From UHGV virus genome UHGV-0076294: a DNA stretch of 64,000 nucleotides; one strand, given 5' to 3'. Every line of letters starts with the position of its first letter. Positions within the stretch are counted from its first letter, which is position 1. The notes under the pieces are model-generated. The model had not been told where the DNA came from. It saw nothing but the letters and a program-made list of their open reading frames with translations, and ran no database searches. The DNA is from a virus. Shown piece after piece: positions 33,504-63,978 of the stretch. Made by a program: the position numbers and the translations under genes.

Positions 33504-33812
33504 ATGGAAAACTATTCGGGTTGGGCGATTTCGCAGTGCATTGGCTATTCTTTACGTTCTTTAGTGCGTACACTTTATAACAAAAACTCGGGTGAAGCTA
33601 TTACACCGCAGTTATTGGGCAAACTGGAAGTCGAAGTTAACTATAAACTAAAACAGTTACTCGACAACCACGTAAGAACAATGCGTTGGGAGTTCTTGCT
33701 ACGTGGTAAGAAGCCTTCAATTACCGTTGTAGCAGAAGGTAGTGAAATCGTACTGCAATCCAACGCAGACCTGTTTGAAATTTTAACTGAACTAGAAAAG
33801 GACAAAATCTAA
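33504..33812 (+). CDS. hypothetical protein
   Basis: 102-aa ORF; stop overlaps thyA start (TAATG). Confidence 0.5.
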
Positions 33813-34852
33813 TGAAACAGTATTTAGCGTTAATGCAAGACATTCTGGATAACGGCGTTGTCAAAAAAGACCGTACGGGCGTAGGGACACTTTCTGTATT
33901 TGGTCGCCAACTACGTTTTGACCTGAAAGAAGGTTTCCCATTAGTTACTACGAAAAAGGTTCACCTGAAAAGTATCATTCATGAACTGTTATGGTTCTTG
34001 AACGGTGACACTAACGTGAAGTACCTGCAAGAGAATGGGGTAAGAATCTGGAACGAGTGGGCGAATGAAGAAGGGGAATTAGGCCCTGTCTACGGACACC
34101 AGTGGCGAGAATGGATGGATACCAAACTGGTTTATCTTTGGGACGAGCGTAGCAAGGACGTATTGAGAAAACGAGGATATCGCTACGTTGGGACTATCGC
34201 AAAGGACGATCCTGAAGAAAGTATCGTTATTTATCGCAAATCTCACGACCAGATCAGCAAAGTTATCCAGCAACTTCGTGAAGACCCTGACTCCCGCCGT
34301 ATTATCGTTAGTGCCTGGAACGTAGCCGACCTAGACGATATGGCACTTAACCCATGTCACAACTATTTCCAATTCTACACAACGGAAATGACGTTGCCTG
34401 AACGACTGGATTGGTACGAAGTAAACGAACCGGAAAAATTTGCGAACGCACCACTTATTAATCACGAAGATATCGATAGCGAAGAACGACTTCACGAAAT
34501 TTTAGATCGTGAAGGTATCCCACGTCGTAAACTTTCGTGTTTTTACATGATGCGGAGCAACGATTACCTACTCGGCGCGCCGTTTAACGTCGCTTCTTAC
34601 GCGTTGTTAACCCACATGATTGCTCAACAACTCAATATGGTTCCAGACGAGTTAGTTTACAGTGGCGTGGACGTTCATCTGTACTCTAACCATCTGGAGC
34701 AGGCAAAACTTCAACTTACTCGCGAACCTTACCCGCTACCTAAACTGGTTATCAAACGTAAACCTGATTCTATCTTCGATTACAAATACGAAGACTTCGA
34801 ATTGGTTGGATATCAATCGCACGACACAATTAAAGCTCCCATAGCTGTCTAA
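33812..34852 (+). CDS. thyA: thymidylate synthase (ThyA family) with two internal insertions
   Basis: Near-identity to E. coli ThyA over conserved blocks (MKQYL..., DRTGTGT-like, [17 protein letters not shown], catalytic [29 protein letters not shown]); 346 aa versus ~264. Confidence 0.9.
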
Positions 34853-34859
34853 GGGGTAC

Positions 34860-35156
34860 ATGATGATTAATGAGAAATCGTACGCGGAGTTAACTTCTTT
34901 CGGTATTAGTCGATTAGCTGAACTAAAAACTATCACCGAGCGTGCCGGAATAGCATTGCAGGCCAAAGGTAAGTTTGATCAAGGCGATATCGAAATCTTA
35001 GAAAAGATTTCGGCAACGTTAAAAGACTTACGTGTATTGAATATTCTTGTTGGTAAATTGGGTGGCCTAAGTAACAAGAAATTGGCCGAAATACACGGAG
35101 TGACGCCAAGCCGAATATCTCAAATCATCAGCAAGGCCAAACGAGATTTTCAATAA
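34860..35156 (+). CDS. small DNA-binding protein with sigma-70 region-4-like HTH
   Basis: C-terminal LAEIHGVTPSRISQIISKAKRDF resembles sigma-70 region 4.2 helix-turn-helix; 98 aa. Confidence 0.5.
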   Translation: MMINEKSYAELTSFGISRLAELKTITERAGIALQAKGKFDQGDIEILEKISATLKDLRVLNILVGKLGGLSNKKLAEIHGVTPSRISQIISKAKRDFQ

Positions 35157-35190: not shown

Positions 35191-35637
35191 ATGTCTAAAA
35201 CTCATGTTAACTATAACATCGTAGTAGAAGAATTATCAAAAGGTTTAACCGACCTGGATTCTAAAGATAACCCATTTACCGATCGTTATGGAGCCAAAGC
35301 TTTATCTGAGTTCCGTACTATCCGCTACGGTACAGGTAGACAGACAGGGCTTACAGACTTTGCTGTCGAGTTAGCTAAGAACCATAAAGGGAAGGTATTA
35401 TTCGTTAATCCAAAAGGGTTCTTAGAGGACGATGTGCTATTCCGTTTGGGTCTCGAAGACTTACCGGAGAATATCACCCAAATCATTGGTTACCAAATGG
35501 GTACAGAAAAAGAAAAATACAGCCTTGTTATTGTAGACAACGCTGGGGTTTTCTTTAGCATTTTCCGTTACATGAAGTTCTTTCGCTTACTGGCAAACTC
35601 AGTAACTAAAGACGTCGTAATACATTTAATGGGTTAA
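35191..35637 (+). CDS. hypothetical protein
   Basis: 148-aa ORF; RBS AAAGGAAC. Confidence 0.5.
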   Translation: MSKTHVNYNIVVEELSKGLTDLDSKDNPFTDRYGAKALSEFRTIRYGTGRQTGLTDFAVELAKNHKGKVLFVNPKGFLEDDVLFRLGLEDLPENITQIIGYQMGTEKEKYSLVIVDNAGVFFSIFRYMKFFRLLANSVTKDVVIHLMG

Positions 35638-35655
35638 TCAGTGGGGGTTAGTTCT

Positions 35656-35826
35656 ATGGAAGAATTAGAGGCGGTTCCCTGTTACATTCCTAGAAGAGGT
35701 GTTATAAAAGAATGTTTCATCGATCGTATTTTGATCTCTCGTATCAAGAAAGGTCCAAGAAAACATCAAACCAAGAAGGTATTTATTTATAAATACTTCG
35801 AAAAGATTCTATTCCAACCTTACTGA
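35656..35826 (+). CDS. small basic protein with KGPxK motif (repeat 1 of 3)
   Basis: 56 aa from ATG 35656 (ORF track begins at GTG 35641); IKKGPRKHQTKKVFIYKY. Confidence 0.3.
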   Translation: MEELEAVPCYIPRRGVIKECFIDRILISRIKKGPRKHQTKKVFIYKYFEKILFQPY

Positions 35827-35854
35827 CTAAATTAACTCAGGGAGTAAATTTGCT

Positions 35855-36052
35855 ATGTTAGACGATGTTCTTAATTTCACGATAATGTATTTCGAACCGA
35901 AGAAGTTCCGTACTATCGCCACACGTTACTGTAAAGGGCCGAACAAAGGACGTAAACGTTTCCAAGTAATTCAACTTGATTATTCCAAGTTCCTTGTAGC
36001 TAATCCATTCGAGCGGAAACCTAATGAAGAAACTGGATTTGGTCAAAATTGA
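35855..36052 (+). CDS. small basic protein with KGPxK motif (repeat 2 of 3)
   Basis: 65 aa; CKGPNKGRKRFQVIQLD; different frame from neighbours. Confidence 0.3.
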   Translation: MLDDVLNFTIMYFEPKKFRTIATRYCKGPNKGRKRFQVIQLDYSKFLVANPFERKPNEETGFGQN

Positions 36053-36239
36053 TTATCTCGTTGGAGGGGTAATTTTTATCGGTTACGCGCATAAACGCAA
36101 AGGTCCTGGTAAATCCAGGACTCGCGGGTTCCGTATAGTGAAAAGAAACCATAATATTAATCCTCTAATAATGGTCTTAGGAAAGCTAACCTTTTTAATT
36201 TCAAAACGTGTGCCATCTTTGGTAAAATTTGGAGAGTAA
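36024..36239 (+). CDS. small basic protein with KGPxK motif (repeat 3 of 3)
   Basis: 71 aa; KRKGPGKSRTRGFRIVKRN; overlaps previous ORF by 29 nt in a third frame. Confidence 0.3.
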   Translation: MKKLDLVKIDYLVGGVIFIGYAHKRKGPGKSRTRGFRIVKRNHNINPLIMVLGKLTFLISKRVPSLVKFGE

Positions 36240-36241
36240 AA

Positions 36242-36385
36242 ATGACTGAAGAAGTTAAAGTAGAAACCGTTAAAGAAACTGACGAATTTGCAATCCCTGG
36301 CTTAGACCCGGAAGCTACTGTAGAGAAGGGTGCTGACCCAACCACGGAAGACGATAACTGCTCAGGCGGGGCTTGCAAAATTTAA
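36242..36385 (+). CDS. small acidic protein (47 aa)
   Basis: Not in ORF track. ATG after GGAGAG RBS; MTEEVKVETVKETDEFAIPGLDPEATVEKGADPTTEDDNCSGGACKI; followed by its own terminator. Confidence 0.35.
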   Translation: MTEEVKVETVKETDEFAIPGLDPEATVEKGADPTTEDDNCSGGACKI

Positions 36386-36393
36386 CAGTTCAC

Positions 36394-36432
36394 GGGGTGC
36401 TTATGTAGCACCCCTAATCCTTATTCTTTTTT
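36394..36432 (+). terminator. intrinsic terminator
   Basis: GGGGTGC-ttatgta-GCACCCC followed by TAATCCTTATTCTTTTTT. Confidence 0.65.
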
Positions 36433-36453
36433 GTTAATCTAATGGAGTTTAAA

Positions 36454-37284
36454 ATGGGCGAACGTTTTGACATCAACGCTATCTACAACATCGTAGTTAA
36501 TCCTGGTCAACACCTGGAAGAAGTTAATGCACAACTGCGTGCTCTGAACGAGAAAGCGATTCAGTTTGATGCTATCTACACCATCGGCGTAAATCCTGGT
36601 ACTAACCGTGTTCGTGTAGAAGGTAAACGCCACACCGGTAATCAGGAACTGGACATTGAAACGATCGAAGCCCCGATTAAACTTACCGATGCCGAATATA
36701 ACGGTACAGTAATGCACACCGTATCGGTTCCGGTCTACTCTATCGAGAACTGTGTAGAACGTGTTAAAGGTTGGTCTAAAGAACGTGGTATTCTCGACAA
36801 CGGTAAACTGGAAACACAAATCACGAAGTTCTTTGAAGAGTTTGGTGAAATCGCAACAGGTATCAGCAAAAACAAACCTGAACTGATCATGGACGGTATC
36901 GGCGATGCGTTAGTGGTTCTGGTGAACATTCTGGAACTGGGTAAAGAATACCATGACGAATACTTAACAACGGCCGATATTATTAGTAGCGGTTTAACTA
37001 TGCAACTTCGTGATGTTGCAAATGTTGAAGCTTGTGCAAACGATCATAAATTCCCACATCGAAAATACCTGGAAGCAACTAATTCTTTTTCCACGTCTTT
37101 CTTAAATACTAACAAAGACGATAACCTGTTCGATCATGGTTTGTATTGCCTTGCTTGTCTCGCGCTGTATTACAAACTGGACATTCGCCATTGCTTCTCT
37201 TTAGCCTGGCACGAAATCAAAGACCGTAAAGGTTACCTGAACGCCGACGGCATCTTTGTAAAAGATGCAGACTTGGCGAAATAA
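36454..37284 (+). CDS. MazG-like nucleotide pyrophosphohydrolase domain protein, tentative
   Basis: Start set at ATG 36454, 6 nt after GGAG (ORF track 36442). C-terminal region ...FFEEFGEIATGI...MDGIGDALVVLVNILEL resembles the MazG EExGE / D-x-x-GD helices. Confidence 0.45.
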   Translation: MGERFDINAIYNIVVNPGQHLEEVNAQLRALNEKAIQFDAIYTIGVNPGTNRVRVEGKRHTGNQELDIETIEAPIKLTDAEYNGTVMHTVSVPVYSIENCVERVKGWSKERGILDNGKLETQITKFFEEFGEIATGISKNKPELIMDGIGDALVVLVNILELGKEYHDEYLTTADIISSGLTMQLRDVANVEACANDHKFPHRKYLEATNSFSTSFLNTNKDDNLFDHGLYCLACLALYYKLDIRHCFSLAWHEIKDRKGYLNADGIFVKDADLAK

Positions 37285-61920: not shown

Positions 61921-63978
61921 TTAGCTCTCCGTACTGTCGCGACGATAAACTTTGATCGTCGTGTTGAACTGCGTCAACAGTACACCGCCTTCAGCTTTAA
62001 TGTCCAGCGTGATGGAATAGCCGTTAGCTTTGTCATCCGCTGTCATGTACGCACTCGGAGTAATGTTGGCAATACTATCCAGGCGACCTTCCAAACGCTC
62101 GGTGATTTTGTTCTCAATCATTTTCGCGCGTTCGTCGTCCGTCATACGGCTCTCACCGGACATATCTGCCCAAACTTGATCACTGACACGATAAACGTAG
62201 GTCATGATGAAGTTAAACAGTGCGTTATTCAGCACTGAACGTTCTTCGCTATAGATGGACTGAAGTGCTGGGATGAACAAACGATAGTAGTCGCGGGAAC
62301 GTGCAGTAACCAGTGACACATCCCAGTCGGATGCGTAAATCTCGTTACCTTTCCACGGCATACTCAGATCGTACAGATCTTCGATAATCGTCTCTTCACC
62401 ACGGCTGAAGCGATAAGCAGGTTTAGCGCGACCTTCACCGGAACCCAAATACTTCGAGAAGAAGTTCGCGATGCTGTAACACATCGGAACCGGTTTCTTG
62501 TAAGAGGAGTTACGGATGTAAGCGTCCTGACCACAAATCATCCCACGGCACGCTGGGGTACCGTAATAAGACGATTCAGGTACAGACGTGATCATTTCGA
62601 TCAGCGCTGTCTTCACGTTCTCTTCCGTTTGCAGATCGTTACGACCTTGATTGTAAACGTGGGTGCAAAGAGTCAGGAACGTGTTACGAGAACGACCGAT
62701 GAAGTTCGTCAGGGCTTTCTTGGTATCCATGCTGAAGCCGGAGTCCCAGAAGCAACCCAGAGAGTATTTCAGTTCGTTATCGTAGCGGACTTTACCGCCG
62801 TCCGGGAACAGAGACATTTCACGGCGAACCAGTTCGTCGTAAACATCGTTGTTCATGGTCCCGTTACTACCGCCTTGCAGGTAGTGGATATTCGAAGCAG
62901 AGAAAACAATTTTACCTACTTCTTCAGACGGGTTAACTTGTAAACCGTCGTAGAGCTGACCGGTTAAGTCAACGCCACCGAAAATATCGACCATATACGG
63001 ATCGGTAATTGCCGGTTTTGCGTTTTGAATCTTAGATTGGGCCAGTTTCAGCACCGTTTCCAGGTTTTCACGGTAGATGTAAAACTCTTCGAACGGGCCG
63101 TAATCCGGCAGACCACCGATATCCGGCATCGTCTGACGATACGCATCTGGAACGACGACTTCGAAGTCCAGCTGGGTGCTCATCGGCTGATAGTATGCAT
63201 CGGGCTTGAAGCTAACATTGATGCTGCTAAGACCTTTGAGGGTCTTCCAAATCACCGGTGATGTTACCCCTGCTAAGGTCTCGAACCATTGCAGTGCGTA
63301 CATACGTCCGCCTACATTCGTCTGATAAGCAGACGCAATAGACGGGCTGGATTTTTCGTTCAGCGGAACCAGTTTGAAACCAAATCCGTTGACATCAGAA
63401 CCCGCGTACGGACCTTTGATATCAAAAATCGGATAGAGTTTTGATTTCGCCTGAGTCTCGGTATCAGTCATCGTACCTTCGGTGACGGTGCCCGCTTTTA
63501 CGTTGCTGACATCATCGATGACGGACAGTCGGAAGACGATTTTCAGACCGTCTACCTGTTCTTTGACTTTCGGCTTACCGCTTACGTCGTACTGAATCGC
63601 GCCGTTCTCACGCTCATAAGCGGGAACTTTCGTTTCCAGTACGTCAGCAACCAGACGGATAGCTGCGGTTTTCGCATCATCCGGTACCAGGCGCTGATAC
63701 ATGCAATCGTTACCGTTAGCGTTGAACATCGCCTGGAAAGGTGTGTTAAACGTCGCGTAATCGCCACGCAGGTCGAACAAATCGCGACCAAGCAGAGACA
63801 ATGCATTATCCCCGGATAACGGGAACGCCTCGTCGTCTACCCCGCGTGAAGCAAAGGTGAAGATCAGCGGCTTATGAATCGGATCACCCGTGGGGGTCCG
63901 AACAAGCTCAGGGACAGAATTGTCCTGCCACCCCTGCTTGTTATTCAACGGCGCGCCGTTTCGTGGAATAAAACTCAT
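61921..63978 (-). CDS. hypothetical protein, putative virion structural protein (tail-sheath-like or capsid-like size)
   Basis: 685-aa ORF with GGAGA RBS; first gene visible in a minus-strand block running off the window end; no enzymatic motif recognised. Confidence 0.5.
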   Translation of the reverse strand: MSFIPRNGAPLNNKQGWQDNSVPELVRTPTGDPIHKPLIFTFASRGVDDEAFPLSGDNALSLLGRDLFDLRGDYATFNTPFQAMFNANGNDCMYQRLVPDDAKTAAIRLVADVLETKVPAYERENGAIQYDVSGKPKVKEQVDGLKIVFRLSVIDDVSNVKAGTVTEGTMTDTETQAKSKLYPIFDIKGPYAGSDVNGFGFKLVPLNEKSSPSIASAYQTNVGGRMYALQWFETLAGVTSPVIWKTLKGLSSINVSFKPDAYYQPMSTQLDFEVVVPDAYRQTMPDIGGLPDYGPFEEFYIYRENLETVLKLAQSKIQNAKPAITDPYMVDIFGGVDLTGQLYDGLQVNPSEEVGKIVFSASNIHYLQGGSNGTMNNDVYDELVRREMSLFPDGGKVRYDNELKYSLGCFWDSGFSMDTKKALTNFIGRSRNTFLTLCTHVYNQGRNDLQTEENVKTALIEMITSVPESSYYGTPACRGMICGQDAYIRNSSYKKPVPMCYSIANFFSKYLGSGEGRAKPAYRFSRGEETIIEDLYDLSMPWKGNEIYASDWDVSLVTARSRDYYRLFIPALQSIYSEERSVLNNALFNFIMTYVYRVSDQVWADMSGESRMTDDERAKMIENKITERLEGRLDSIANITPSAYMTADDKANGYSITLDIKAEGGVLLTQFNTTIKVYRRDSTES

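What the first reader, a model, noticed from the sequence alone, without database searches (positions are those of the whole stretch)
35641..36385. AT-rich islet with three small basic ORFs sharing a KGPxK motif in three frames, plus a 47-aa acidic protein
ORFs 35656-35826, 35855-36052 and 36024-36239 each contain K-G-P-x-K followed by a basic stretch and F-x-[IV] (IKKGPRKHQTKKVFIYKY; CKGPNKGRKRFQVIQLD; KRKGPGKSRTRGFRIVKRN), but lie in three different frames with overlap. This is either three tiny paralogous nucleic-acid-binding proteins or one repeat-containing gene broken by frameshifts (pseudogene or programmed frameshifting). It is followed by a strongly acidic 47-aa ORF ending CSGGACKI with its own RBS and terminator, of the type seen for DNA-mimic or regulator micro-proteins.
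Basis: seen in the sequence. Interest (0 to 1): 0.5.

Follow-up and report, generated by a model that had tools for sequence, protein, structure and literature searches.

The report
Free-standing RNR tail mimic, small genes
A giant phage with no ribonucleotide reductase of its own carries a 47-residue protein that copies the cysteine-bearing tail of its host's reductase, next to a variable set of tiny basic genes found only in this phage lineage; this suggests, untested, that the phage acts on the host's supply of DNA building blocks.

Summary
Three small basic ORFs (35656-35826, 35855-36052, 36024-36239) each carry KGPxK. These are the motif's only three occurrences in all six frames of the 64-kb window. 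The islet is AT-rich (GC 0.369 vs 0.458).

They are three separate coding genes, not one broken gene. Relatives keep them as separate ORFs under purifying selection (dN/dS 0.25-0.5; off-frame controls 0.7-2.0) and in varying number (1-4 genes in the slot). The family is confined to this phage lineage among 1.84 billion representative proteins. Paralogy rests on the motif alone.

The main result concerns the 47-aa acidic ORF. Its end (EDDNCSGGACKI-stop) matches the C-terminal redox tail of class Ia ribonucleotide reductase NrdA (E. coli DDGCESGACKI-stop, Cys754/Cys759). In bacterial genomes this ending occurs essentially only on NrdA or on similar micro-ORFs. The phage lineage and SPN3US encode no NrdA/NrdB homologue and none of any class is annotated. 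The micro-gene is strongly constrained (dN/dS 0.07). It is conserved across Enterobacterales jumbo phages. In 8 of 21 ORF3 protein clusters it is fused in frame to ORF3.

Most likely it acts on host RNR or its redoxins by tail mimicry. Whether it stimulates or inhibits is untested.

The parts
35191..35637 (+). 148-aa gene (PHROG 2586, function unknown). In SPN3US and Asesino its clear homologue lies directly upstream of the tail micro-gene; in CR5 the upstream gene is of doubtful homology.
   Evidence: PHROG hit 3.9e-29. Synteny in SPN3US, Asesino and CR5; the CR5 protein aligns poorly, 30% identity. dN/dS 0.06. No Pfam, NCBIfam or PDB hit.
35638..36241 (+). AT-rich variable cassette slot. It is absent from SPN3US and Asesino and holds 1-4 small genes in close relatives.
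   Evidence: GC 0.369 against 0.458. Slot length 238-1022 bp in 24 loci. The gene pair is contiguous in SPN3US and Asesino. PGAP leaves the slot unannotated in NZ_CP173450.1.
35656..35826 (+). ORF1: 56-aa basic protein (KKGPRKH), present in only 7 of 24 loci.
   Evidence: Clean cassette indel. dN/dS about 0.5 from only 3 distinct sequences.
35855..36052 (+). ORF2: 65-aa basic protein ([RC]KGPxKGRKRF), present in 23 of 24 loci, with two subtypes.
   Evidence: 35 protein clusters, all from this lineage. dN/dS 0.30-0.34 in frame against 1.05 and 1.35 off frame.
36024..36239 (+). ORF3: 71-aa basic protein (RKGPGKS). The first ~40 residues are the conserved core and the C-terminus is variable. In other genomes it is often fused in frame to the tail micro-gene.
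   Evidence: 21 clusters, 8 of them ~120-aa fusions. dN/dS 0.25 in frame against 0.73 and 1.96 off frame. Low-confidence model shows a beta-hairpin with KGP in the turn.
35749..35763 (+). KGPRK motif codons of ORF1.
35933..35947 (+). KGPNK motif codons of ORF2.
36099..36113 (+). KGPGK motif codons of ORF3.
36242..36385 (+). 47-aa acidic micro-protein: a free-standing NrdA C-terminal tail mimic (PHROG 14561/38753/24014).
   Evidence: PHROG E 1.6e-15. It is the only similarity to NrdA in the whole phage genome. dN/dS 0.07. 64 protein clusters.
36350..36385 (+). Tail motif D37-D-N-C40-S-G-G-A-C45-K-I47-stop. It matches E. coli NrdA D751-D-G-C754-E-S-G-A-C759-K-I761-stop.
   Evidence: 68 of 80 genomic occurrences of C.GGACKI-stop are NrdA C-termini.
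36394..36432 (+). Hairpin (36394-36414) followed by a T-rich run: a probable terminator after the micro-gene.
   Evidence: dG -16.8 kcal/mol, z = -4.4. Not called by the strict consensus scan.
36442..37284 (+). MazG-like nucleotide pyrophosphohydrolase, the conserved downstream neighbour.
   Evidence: PHROG 7855, E 6.4e-73. Synteny.
33812..34852 (+). Thymidylate synthase, the start of the nucleotide-metabolism gene block.
   Evidence: (PF00303).

Best explanation
The region is a conserved gene pair interrupted in this lineage by an AT-rich slot. The pair is the 148-aa PHROG-2586 protein followed by an acidic micro-protein. The slot collects tiny lineage-specific genes.

Shown:
- ORF1, ORF2 and ORF3 are three independent protein-coding genes for small basic proteins of 56-71 aa.
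- The best-conserved element of each is a [RK]KGPxK turn between two hydrophobic strands.
- They are gained and lost as cassettes.
- They occur nowhere outside this phage lineage.
- The 47-aa acidic protein ends in a copy of the disordered C-terminal redox tail of the host's class Ia ribonucleotide reductase alpha subunit (NrdA). The two cysteines have the same CX4C spacing, the same acidic lead-in and the same ...ACKI-stop ending.
- The phage has no NrdA/NrdB homologue and no annotated reductase or redoxin, although it has ThyA, DHFR, a 5'-nucleotidase and MazG.

Inferred:
- In NrdA this tail carries electrons from thioredoxin or glutaredoxin to the active-site disulfide. The free tail would therefore engage the same partners, either the NrdA active site or the redoxins, and so let the phage act on host dNTP synthesis.
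- I favour a trans-acting extra reductant shuttle that raises host RNR turnover, because the phage must make about 222 kb of DNA per progeny from host-made dNDPs.
- A competitive, Sml1-like block of tail re-reduction is the main alternative within the same mechanism.
- ORF3 is probably a partner or N-terminal module of the tail protein, because the two are fused in frame in many natural genomes. ORF1 and ORF2 would then be diverged duplicates of that module.
For: Separate real genes:
- ORFs are kept separate in 24 loci with 1-4 genes in the slot.
- In-frame dN/dS is 0.25-0.34 against 0.7-2.0 off frame.
- ORF1 is a clean cassette indel.
- Relatives have strong SD sites or ATGA start/stop overlaps.

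Motif is not chance:
- 3 of 3 window-wide occurrences are in the islet.
- It is invariant within each ortholog group.
- Profile comparisons align it in all three pairs.

Lineage restriction.

Tail identity:
- E. coli NrdA ends DDGCESGACKI* and the phage proteins end DDNCSGGACKI*, DDNCTGGACKI* or DDGCAGGACKI*.
- It is the top and only NrdA similarity in two complete phage genomes.
- Of 80 genomic hits to C.GGACKI-stop, 68 are C-termini of ~755-790-aa NrdA. The other 12 are 10 free-standing micro-ORFs, one NrdA fragment and one stub without a start codon.
- An NrdA fragment (P0077) is retrieved by the micro-protein profile.
[quoted passage not shown] Class I RNRs use this double-cysteine tail to reduce the active site (PMC9669993).

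No phage RNR or redoxin: PGAP annotation of the complete 221,873-bp relative, plus tblastn on that genome and on SPN3US.

Constraint and spread: dN/dS 0.07; 64 clusters in Salmonella, Escherichia, Erwinia, Cronobacter and Proteus jumbo phages.

Link to ORF3: 8 of 21 ORF3 clusters are in-frame fusions of about 120 aa, with several different junction sequences, including one in a Salmonella isolate assembly.
Against: - No experiment or structural model supports binding to NrdA, thioredoxin or glutaredoxin. The similarity covers only about 12-15 residues (tblastn E = 0.001 for the tail alone against the phage DNA).
- No full-length NrdA reaches significance against the family profile in the 5.8-billion-protein search.
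- The family also has conserved elements that NrdA lacks (IPGLDP, VEGGVD).
- The direction of the effect (boost or block) is undetermined.
- The ORF3-tail fusions arise at an A-run and could be tolerated accidents of adjacency. SPN3US, Asesino and CR5 have the tail protein but no KGP genes, so KGP proteins are not required for tail function.
- ORF3 is missing in one locus and ORF2 in another.
- The AF2 model of the fusion has low confidence, pLDDT 48.
- Bacterial homologues in Neisseria and Rheinheimera show no conserved neighbour that ties them to RNR.
Confidence: 0.55

Rival explanations
1. The three KGP genes are independent accessory cargo with no functional link to the tail protein. They would be small basic nucleic-acid-binding or host-takeover/anti-defence proteins sitting in a recombination-prone slot. 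The fusions to the tail gene would be incidental products of an A-run at the junction.
For: The slot is AT-rich and varies from 238 to 1022 bp, with cassette gain and loss. Selection is relaxed compared with the neighbours: 0.25-0.5 against 0.06-0.07. Other tail-bearing phages lack KGP genes altogether. An unrelated 129-aa gene also lands in the slot. The proteins are very basic, pI 9.7-11.7.
Against: Fusion to the tail protein is common (8 of 21 clusters) with several distinct junction sequences, so it is at least tolerated by a gene under strong constraint. ORF3 is present in 23 of 24 loci and always lies immediately upstream of the tail gene, often with an ATGA overlap.
Confidence: 0.4
2. 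The three ORFs are the wreck of one repeat-containing gene (a pseudogene), or are joined by programmed frameshifting.
For: There are three frames, a 29-nt overlap between ORF2 and ORF3, and a repeated motif.
Against: No relative has an intact long ORF. Each ORF is conserved with its own start in 24 loci. In-frame dN/dS is well below the off-frame values. ORF1 and ORF2 can each be absent without disturbing the others. No slippery site lies between them.
Confidence: 0.03
3. The acidic 47-aa protein is a generic acidic DNA mimic or regulator, and its resemblance to NrdA is coincidental.
For: pI 4.05 with 13 acidic residues out of 47. It is small and is a phage gene of unknown function.
Against: The invariant columns are the Cys-containing C-terminus and IPGLDP, not a pattern of charges. 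The N-terminal acidic part varies in length and sequence. In 80 sampled genomic hits the ending C.GGACKI-stop is found only on NrdA, similar micro-ORFs or one uninterpretable stub.
Confidence: 0.07
4. The micro-protein is a redox-active or post-translationally modified peptide (for example a RiPP precursor), or a thiol substrate of another phage enzyme such as the adjacent 148-aa protein. It would be unrelated to RNR.
For: It has an acidic leader-like N-terminus and a Cys-bearing C-terminal core. Both the window lineage and SPN3US encode two radical SAM proteins. A conserved gene of unknown function always lies upstream.
Against: The radical SAM genes lie about 160 kb away in the relative's 222-kb record and about 59 kb away in SPN3US. 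Bacterial homologues have no maturation enzymes nearby. The exact match to the NrdA terminus, including the last two residues and the stop position, would be left unexplained.
Confidence: 0.1
5. The micro-gene is a decaying remnant of the 3' end of a captured nrdA gene.
For: Sequence identity is confined to the extreme 3' end of nrdA.
Against: dN/dS is 0.07. It has its own strong RBS and a hairpin. It is conserved as an intact ORF across several phage genera and in bacteria. It has family-specific motifs absent from NrdA. No other nrdA-derived sequence is nearby.
Confidence: 0.03

Closest known systems
C-terminal redox tail of class Ia ribonucleotide reductase alpha (E. coli NrdA residues ~738-761, Cys754/Cys759)
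   Same: Same layout at the extreme C-terminus: an acidic run, then C-x-[SG]-G-A-C-K-I-stop. The cysteine spacing (CX4C) and the distance to the stop are the same. Identity to E. coli is 9 of 15 residues. SPN3US gp032 matches 10 of the last 12 residues of the NrdA fragment P0077. The tail is predicted or known to be disordered (PMC4728125).
   Different: It is not attached to a catalytic barrel: it is a 47-aa stand-alone protein in a genome without any detected RNR. It carries extra conserved motifs (IPGLDP, VE[GK]G[AV]D) that NrdA lacks.
Small intrinsically disordered RNR regulators such as yeast Sml1 (also Spd1 and Hug1, from my own knowledge)
   Same: A small protein proposed to act at the large subunit's regeneration step. 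According to Zhang et al. 2007, as cited in PMC6382339, Sml1 inhibits R1 by competing at the site used by the R1 C-terminal cysteine pair.
   Different: There is no sequence relationship. Sml1 is not a copy of the tail. The phage protein may stimulate rather than inhibit. Nothing has been tested here.
PHROG families 14561, 38753 and 24014 (unknown function), e.g. SPN3US gp032, Asesino gp255, CR5_113
   Same: Direct sequence membership, E 1.6e-15 to 2.4e-13 over the C-terminal 32-35 residues. Same synteny between the PHROG-2586 gene and MazG in SPN3US and Asesino.
   Different: Those families carry no functional annotation, and I found no mention of the NrdA-tail resemblance. The window lineage has the shortest N-terminus and, uniquely, the KGP genes upstream.
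Genes-in-pieces RNR in phage (Aeromonas phage Aeh1 nrdA split by a homing endonuclease; recalled from memory, not checked here)
   Same: Part of NrdA encoded as a separate polypeptide in a phage.
   Different: In that case both pieces are present and assemble into an active enzyme. Here the rest of NrdA is absent from the phage genome.
Hyperplastic regions of large phage genomes (T4-type clusters of small non-essential ORFs; from my own knowledge)
   Same: For the KGP islet: an AT-rich, variable-content array of tiny same-strand genes with coupled starts, lying between conserved genes.
   Different: The genes here share a specific motif, and one of them is recurrently fused to the conserved downstream gene.

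Membership tests
NrdA (class Ia RNR alpha subunit) | Catalytic ten-stranded alpha/beta barrel with active-site cysteines | tested here: not met
   The protein is 47 aa. tblastn with E. coli NrdA against the window, the complete 221,873-bp relative and SPN3US finds only the last 15 residues.
NrdA (class Ia RNR alpha subunit) | Disordered C-terminal tail with a redox cysteine pair at the extreme C-terminus (CX4C-K-I in Gammaproteobacteria) | tested here: met
   C40 and C45 of 47 are followed by K-I-stop. They align with C754 and C759 of 761. 68 of 80 genomic C.GGACKI-stop sites are NrdA ends.
NrdA (class Ia RNR alpha subunit) | Tail cysteines reduced by thioredoxin or glutaredoxin, and able to reduce the active-site disulfide | not testable with these tools
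   Needs enzymology. Known only for NrdA itself (PMC4728125, PMC9669993, PMC4078304).
PHROG 14561/38753/24014 micro-protein family | Significant profile match | tested here: met
   E 1.6e-15, 9.8e-15 and 2.4e-13. tblastn to 56 phage records. 64 clusters.
Acidic DNA-mimic proteins | Conserved array of surface carboxylates on a folded scaffold that imitates the DNA backbone | tested here: inconclusive
   It is acidic (pI 4.05), but the invariant columns are IPGLDP and the Cys tail, and the acidic N-terminus is variable. There is no confident fold.
RiPP precursor peptide | Encoded next to its maturation enzyme(s) | tested here: not met
   No such enzyme lies within the gene block. The radical SAM genes are about 160 kb away in the relative's record. 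Bacterial contexts lack them.
Single gene disrupted by frameshifts, or programmed frameshift gene (for ORF1-3) | An intact single ORF in relatives, or a slippery site with conservation of both frames across the junction | tested here: not met
   24 loci, none with a joined ORF. ORF1 and ORF2 are individually dispensable.
Tandem paralogous small-gene family (for ORF1-3) | Statistically significant sequence similarity between members | tested here: inconclusive
   BLASTP finds no hit. Shuffle z-scores are 1.4-3.5 and below 2 with the motif masked. hhalign P values are 1.6e-4, 0.0043 and 0.025 over 14-21 columns.
Tandem paralogous small-gene family (for ORF1-3) | Adjacent, same strand, similar size, shared motif at an equivalent position | tested here: met
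   The motif sits at residues 26-33 of proteins of 56-71 aa. All window-wide occurrences of the motif are here.
NrdB C-terminal tail mimic (second mimicry considered for the micro-protein) | Contains the NrdA-binding terminal motif of NrdB (...D[LF]x[DN]F[DEQ]L) | tested here: not met
   Phage versions: best ungapped match p = 0.16-0.96. Bacterial micro-ORFs do carry [DEN]F[DEQ]L (11 of 14 against 0.44 expected), but they form only about two independent groups.

The most novel reading that the evidence does not exclude
Jumbo phages that lack RNR encode a trans-acting copy of the host NrdA redox tail. It plugs into host RNR and/or thioredoxin and glutaredoxin to reprogramme dNTP synthesis. In this lineage the upstream KGP protein ORF3 is its adaptor module, and indels in an A-run at the junction switch the pair between separate and fused forms. 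Related stand-alone tails on Neisseria and Rheinheimera chromosomes, some of which also carry an NrdB-tail-like motif, would then be an unrecognised class of bacterial RNR regulators.
Probability: 0.3. Interest if true: 0.85.

Novelty: new variant of a known kind. Interest (0 to 1): 0.62.

Why it matters
How the NrdA C-terminal tail works is still one of the less understood steps of class I RNR turnover. The tail is disordered in structures of E. coli RNR such as those in PMC4728125, and PMC9669993 notes that much remains unknown about RNR C-termini. A natural, strongly conserved, stand-alone version of that tail would be a ready-made probe of tail docking and of the redoxin hand-off.

It would also be a new way for viruses to act on host nucleotide supply without carrying the enzyme. 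It would explain how RNR-less jumbo phages such as SPN3US, which is genetically tractable, obtain dNTPs.

The bacterial homologues hint at an unannotated family of small RNR-linked proteins in Neisseria, a genus that includes pathogens.

The KGP genes matter less on their own. They show how tiny lineage-specific genes arise, duplicate and fuse next to a conserved micro-gene, and they are missed by standard annotation: PGAP calls nothing in the slot.

Tried and rejected
- **One broken gene or programmed frameshift for ORF1-3:** rejected.
- **Known domain for ORF1-3:** no hits in Pfam or NCBIfam, and only one sub-threshold PHROG hit for ORF1 (E 0.034). tblastn against about 50,000 phage genomes gave only chance hits with E >= 2. 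Word-indexed searches of 5.8 billion proteins and an exhaustive profile search of 1.84 billion representatives found only this lineage.
- **Structure route:**
  - AF2 of the ORF3-tail fusion with a 31-sequence alignment gave pLDDT 48.
  - AF2 of the 148-aa neighbour without an alignment gave pLDDT 34.
  - I did not run fold searches, because matches to such models are meaningless.
- **DNA or RNA element instead of coding motif:** third-codon positions of the motif vary between paralogues. Rfam finds nothing; the best hit has E 0.69. The direct and inverted repeats in the region are short and look like chance, apart from weak similarity between the 3' ends of the 148-aa gene and ORF1. That similarity did not turn out to be an indel boundary.
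- **Thioredoxin-like WCGPC reading of ORF2's RWCKGP:** the Cys is not conserved (RCRKGP, RWRKGP), so I dropped it.
- **DUF3079 neighbour in Neisseria as a KGP analogue:** it is an unrelated Cys-rich protein.
- **Conserved gene neighbourhood for the bacterial micro-ORFs:** none found.
- **NrdB-tail mimicry in the phage protein:** not significant.
- **148-aa partner:** no Pfam, NCBIfam or PDB match.
- **Literature:**
  - I found no description of stand-alone NrdA tails.
  - The library misses most subscription journals, and the SPN3US genome paper was not held.
Full report
**What is there**

The window comes from a phiKZ/SPN3US-like jumbo phage. A Pfam phiKZ gp29PR domain is found at 61921-63978, and only distant DNA similarity to SPN3US and the Erwinia jumbo phages is detectable. 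The region of the finding lies in a + strand block of nucleotide-metabolism genes:

- thymidylate synthase (33812-34852)
- a 98-aa HTH-like gene
- a 148-aa gene of PHROG 2586 (35191-35637)
- the islet (35638-36241)
- a 47-aa acidic ORF (36242-36385)
- MazG (36442-37284)

The islet has GC 0.369 against 0.458 for the window, which puts it in the lowest 0.4% of 604-bp windows. KGP.K occurs three times in the six-frame translation of all 64 kb, and all three are in the islet. Shuffled sequence gives 0.47 on average.

**Relatives**

The exact 47-aa protein is indexed in 1552 blocks of public assemblies, mostly on contigs of about 220-227 kb. A complete genome of the lineage is deposited as a 221,873-bp 'plasmid' of E. 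coli strain 98232 (NZ_CP173450.1). It is 96.4% identical to the window over 61 kb. A second record comes from Enterobacter ludwigii.

I compared 24 loci, counting the window. The space between the 148-aa gene and the 47-aa gene ranges from 238 to 1022 bp and holds the following:

| Slot content | Loci |
|---|---|
| ORF2 + ORF3 | 16 |
| ORF1 + ORF2 + ORF3 | 3 |
| ORF1 + an unrelated 129-aa gene + ORF2 + ORF3 | 3 |
| ORF1 + the 129-aa gene + ORF2, without ORF3 | 1 |
| ORF3 alone | 1 |

In SPN3US and Asesino the slot does not exist, and the 148-aa homologue runs straight into the micro-gene. More distant relatives simply lack the islet.

**Three genes, not one broken gene**

No relative has a joined ORF. 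ORF1 is a clean cassette of about 198 nt between the stop of the 148-aa gene and the RBS of ORF2. ORF2 can be absent (L027). In many genomes ORF2 and ORF3, and ORF3 and the micro-gene, overlap by ATGA, and ORF3 has a strong SD site.

Selection measured by pooled Nei-Gojobori dN/dS:

| Gene or control | dN/dS |
|---|---|
| ORF3, in frame | 0.25 |
| ORF3, off-frame controls | 0.73 and 1.96 |
| ORF2 (main subtype), in frame | 0.30-0.34 |
| ORF2, off-frame controls | 1.05 and 1.35 |
| ORF1 (3 distinct sequences) | about 0.5 |
| 148-aa gene | 0.06 |
| 47-aa micro-gene | 0.07 |

The three ORFs are therefore real coding genes under purifying selection, about four- to five-fold more relaxed than their neighbours.

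**Are they paralogues?**

The evidence is mixed:

- BLASTP finds nothing between them.
- Local alignment z-scores against shuffles are 1.4-3.5. With the pentapeptide masked they fall below 2.
- Profile-profile comparison of the ortholog groups aligns exactly the motif in all three pairs, with P = 1.6e-4, 0.0043 and 0.025, but over only 14-21 columns.
- Within each group [RK]KGP is invariant and is the most conserved element.
- MAFFT aligns the three collinearly: M..LD/E, I.Y, a hydrophobic strand, KGP, a basic stretch, F.[IV], then [NQ]P[FLY].

I conclude that the motif is shared and functionally important. Common origin by tandem duplication is plausible but not demonstrable.

A low-confidence AF2 model (pLDDT 48) places the motif in the turn of a beta-hairpin.

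The family is confined to this lineage:

- 21 ORF3 clusters and 35 ORF2 clusters among 5.8 billion proteins.
- 7 hits among 1.84 billion representatives, all of these three types.
- No hits in SPN3US.
- No hits in Pfam or NCBIfam and no significant PHROG hit.
- No Rfam element in the islet.

**The acidic micro-protein**

It matches PHROGs 14561, 38753 and 24014, all of unknown function, at E about 1e-15. Homologues occur in 56 phage records from Salmonella, Escherichia, Erwinia, Cronobacter and Proteus jumbo phages.

C-terminal sequences compared:

| Protein | C-terminus |
|---|---|
| Window 47-aa ORF | ...ADPTTEDDNCSGGACKI-stop |
| SPN3US gp032 | ...KDDDNCTGGACKI-stop |
| Asesino gp255 | ...TEDDGCAGGACKI-stop |
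| E. coli NrdA | ...LVPSIQDDGCESGACKI-stop |

In E. coli NrdA the two cysteines are Cys754 and Cys759. They are the redox-active pair in the disordered last ~24 residues (PMC4728125). Class I RNRs use this pair to re-reduce the active site (PMC9669993; PMC4078304).

tblastn with full-length NrdA and NrdB against the complete relative and against SPN3US finds nothing except this 15-residue stretch.

I then scanned one genome per bacterial species for back-translated C-x-G-G-A-C-K-I-stop.

- 68 are the C-terminus of ~755-790-aa proteins ending ...LYY[HQ]NTRDGA.D...DD.C.GGACKI. This is NrdA in Gammaproteobacteria and Neisseriaceae.
- 10 are free-standing micro-ORFs of 42-70 aa, in Neisseria, Rheinheimera, Alishewanella and two uncultured Gammaproteobacteria.
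- 1 is a truncated ORF carrying the LYYHNTRDG signature of NrdA.
- 1 is a stub without a start codon.

The ending is thus essentially a signature of NrdA. The micro-protein is a free-standing copy of it.

The family also has its own conserved elements that NrdA lacks (IPGLDP[DE], VE[GK]G[AV]D). That, together with dN/dS of 0.07, argues against a decaying nrdA fragment.

**No phage RNR**

PGAP annotates no ribonucleotide reductase, thioredoxin or glutaredoxin in the 221,873-bp genome. It does annotate thyA, dihydrofolate reductase and a 5'-nucleotidase; MazG is identified separately. The SPN3US record likewise lists none. The phages that carry the tail therefore depend on host RNR for de novo dNDPs. 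This last step is an inference.

**Link between ORF3 and the tail**

In L007, L021 and L027, and in 8 of the 21 ORF3 protein clusters, ORF3 is fused in frame to the micro-protein, giving products of 120-121 aa. One of these clusters includes a Salmonella isolate assembly. Several different junctions occur...NLGTKMSEE...NLETKMTEE...NLEAKMSEE and ...NLETKKMTEE.

The junction is an A-run:

- A6 gives separate genes with an ATGA overlap.
- A9 (L025) also gives separate genes.
- A4 gives the fusion when upstream ORF3 is intact, and is also found in loci where ORF3 stops earlier and the genes stay separate.

In the window itself ORF3 ends TAA two bases before the ATG, with no slippery run.

Fusion of a relaxed gene onto a strongly constrained one, repeatedly, suggests that the two products work together or at least are compatible. 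Against this, other phages have the tail without any KGP gene.

**Mechanism**

What is shown is sequence mimicry of the NrdA tail, the absence of a phage RNR, a nucleotide-metabolism gene context, and strong constraint.

What is inferred is that the free tail engages the partners of the native tail, namely the NrdA active-site disulfide and Trx/Grx. I favour an added trans shuttle that raises host RNR turnover. The alternative is competitive blocking, analogous to yeast Sml1, which competes at the site used by the R1 C-terminal cysteine pair (Zhang et al. 2007 as cited in PMC6382339). A third option is recruitment of a redoxin to another phage component. None of these could be tested here.

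**Dead ends and side tests**

- Bacterial micro-ORFs contain the NrdB-terminal motif [DEN]F[DEQ]L in 11 of 14 cases, against 0.44 expected. That hints at a double mimic. However, these form only about two independent groups, and the phage proteins show no significant NrdB-tail similarity, p = 0.16-0.96.
- Gene neighbourhoods of the bacterial homologues are not conserved.
- The 148-aa partner has no detectable homologue of known function or structure.
- I found no paper describing stand-alone NrdA tails. The library is incomplete.

**Verdict**

The reading as three small genes is right, and the broken-gene alternative is wrong. The KGP family is a lineage-specific novelty of unknown function.

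The more interesting object is the neighbouring micro-protein. It is best described as a free-standing mimic of the host RNR redox tail carried by RNR-less jumbo phages. I rate it a new variant of a known kind, with interest 0.62.

Noticed in passing
L007, L021, L027 (junction of ORF3 and the tail gene); window equivalent 36225-36244: An A-run at the ORF3/tail junction varies in length: A4, A5, A6 or A9. A6 (ACT AAA AAA TGA) gives separate genes with an ATGA overlap. A4 gives an in-frame 120-aa fusion when ORF3 is intact. A6 directly before a stop codon could also allow -1 ribosomal or transcriptional slippage that produces some fusion protein. The window has no such run.
   Followed up: partly
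L009 2008-4132, L016 1996-4114, L015 2013-3821: In some close relatives the thymidylate synthase gene is split. In L009 and L016 a 269-aa GIY-YIG/NUMOD3/I-TevI-like homing endonuclease gene lies between the two thyA pieces, like an intron. In L015 a gap without that gene separates the pieces. The window's thyA (33812-34852) is intact.
   Followed up: no
L011-L013 4195-4584, also L019: An extra 129-aa acidic gene sits between ORF1 and ORF2 in four relatives. Its best Pfam hit is FAD_SOX (FAD-dependent sulfhydryl oxidase), which is sub-threshold at E 0.0064 and 17 bits against a cut-off of 26.5. This is intriguing next to a dithiol peptide but is not reliable.
   Followed up: partly
window 34860-35156: The 98-aa HTH/sigma-region-4-like gene between thyA and the 148-aa gene is itself present or absent among close relatives. 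It is present in L008, L012, L013 and L015, for example, and absent in L010, L011, L014 and L017 (gene tables). This is a second variable slot in the same block.
   Followed up: no
NZ_CP173450.1 (L029-L033), NZ_CP134650.1: Complete genomes of this jumbo-phage lineage are deposited as circular 'plasmids' of an E. coli urine isolate and of an Enterobacter ludwigii isolate. PGAP calls no gene in the 391-bp KGP slot (191383-191773).
   Followed up: partly
L056, L080, L034 (Neisseria); L049, L081, L085, L100 (Rheinheimera); L065, L069 (Alishewanella); L047, L074 (uncultured Gammaproteobacteria): Bacterial chromosomes encode stand-alone micro-ORFs of 42-70 aa ending in the NrdA tail. Their N-terminal parts carry the last four residues of the NrdB tail of the same taxon (Neisseria NrdB ...GDFEL against micro-ORF EFEL/DFDL; Rheinheimera NrdB ...GDFDL against micro-ORF DFDL). 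They may be unrecognised RNR regulators. They are not annotated in Pfam or NCBIfam.
   Followed up: partly
window 36103-36121: A perfect 7-bp hairpin (GTCCTGG TAAAT CCAGGAC) lies exactly over the KGPGKSRT codons of the window-type ORF3. It is absent from the other ORF3 subtype, so it is probably incidental.
   Followed up: no
NZ_CP173450.1 28603-30724; SPN3US 140024-142139: Two adjacent radical SAM genes are conserved in both the window lineage and SPN3US, next to a DUF4376 gene. Their function is unknown.
   Followed up: no
P0043, P0045, P0050, P0051, P0055, P0070 (CR5/Derbicus/Phobos-type tail proteins): In other jumbo phages the tail micro-protein carries a different conserved N-terminal module (...GRATSLTGDPVD...). 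The family is therefore modular: a variable N-terminal part, then IPGLDP, then VEGGVD, then the Cys tail.
   Followed up: no
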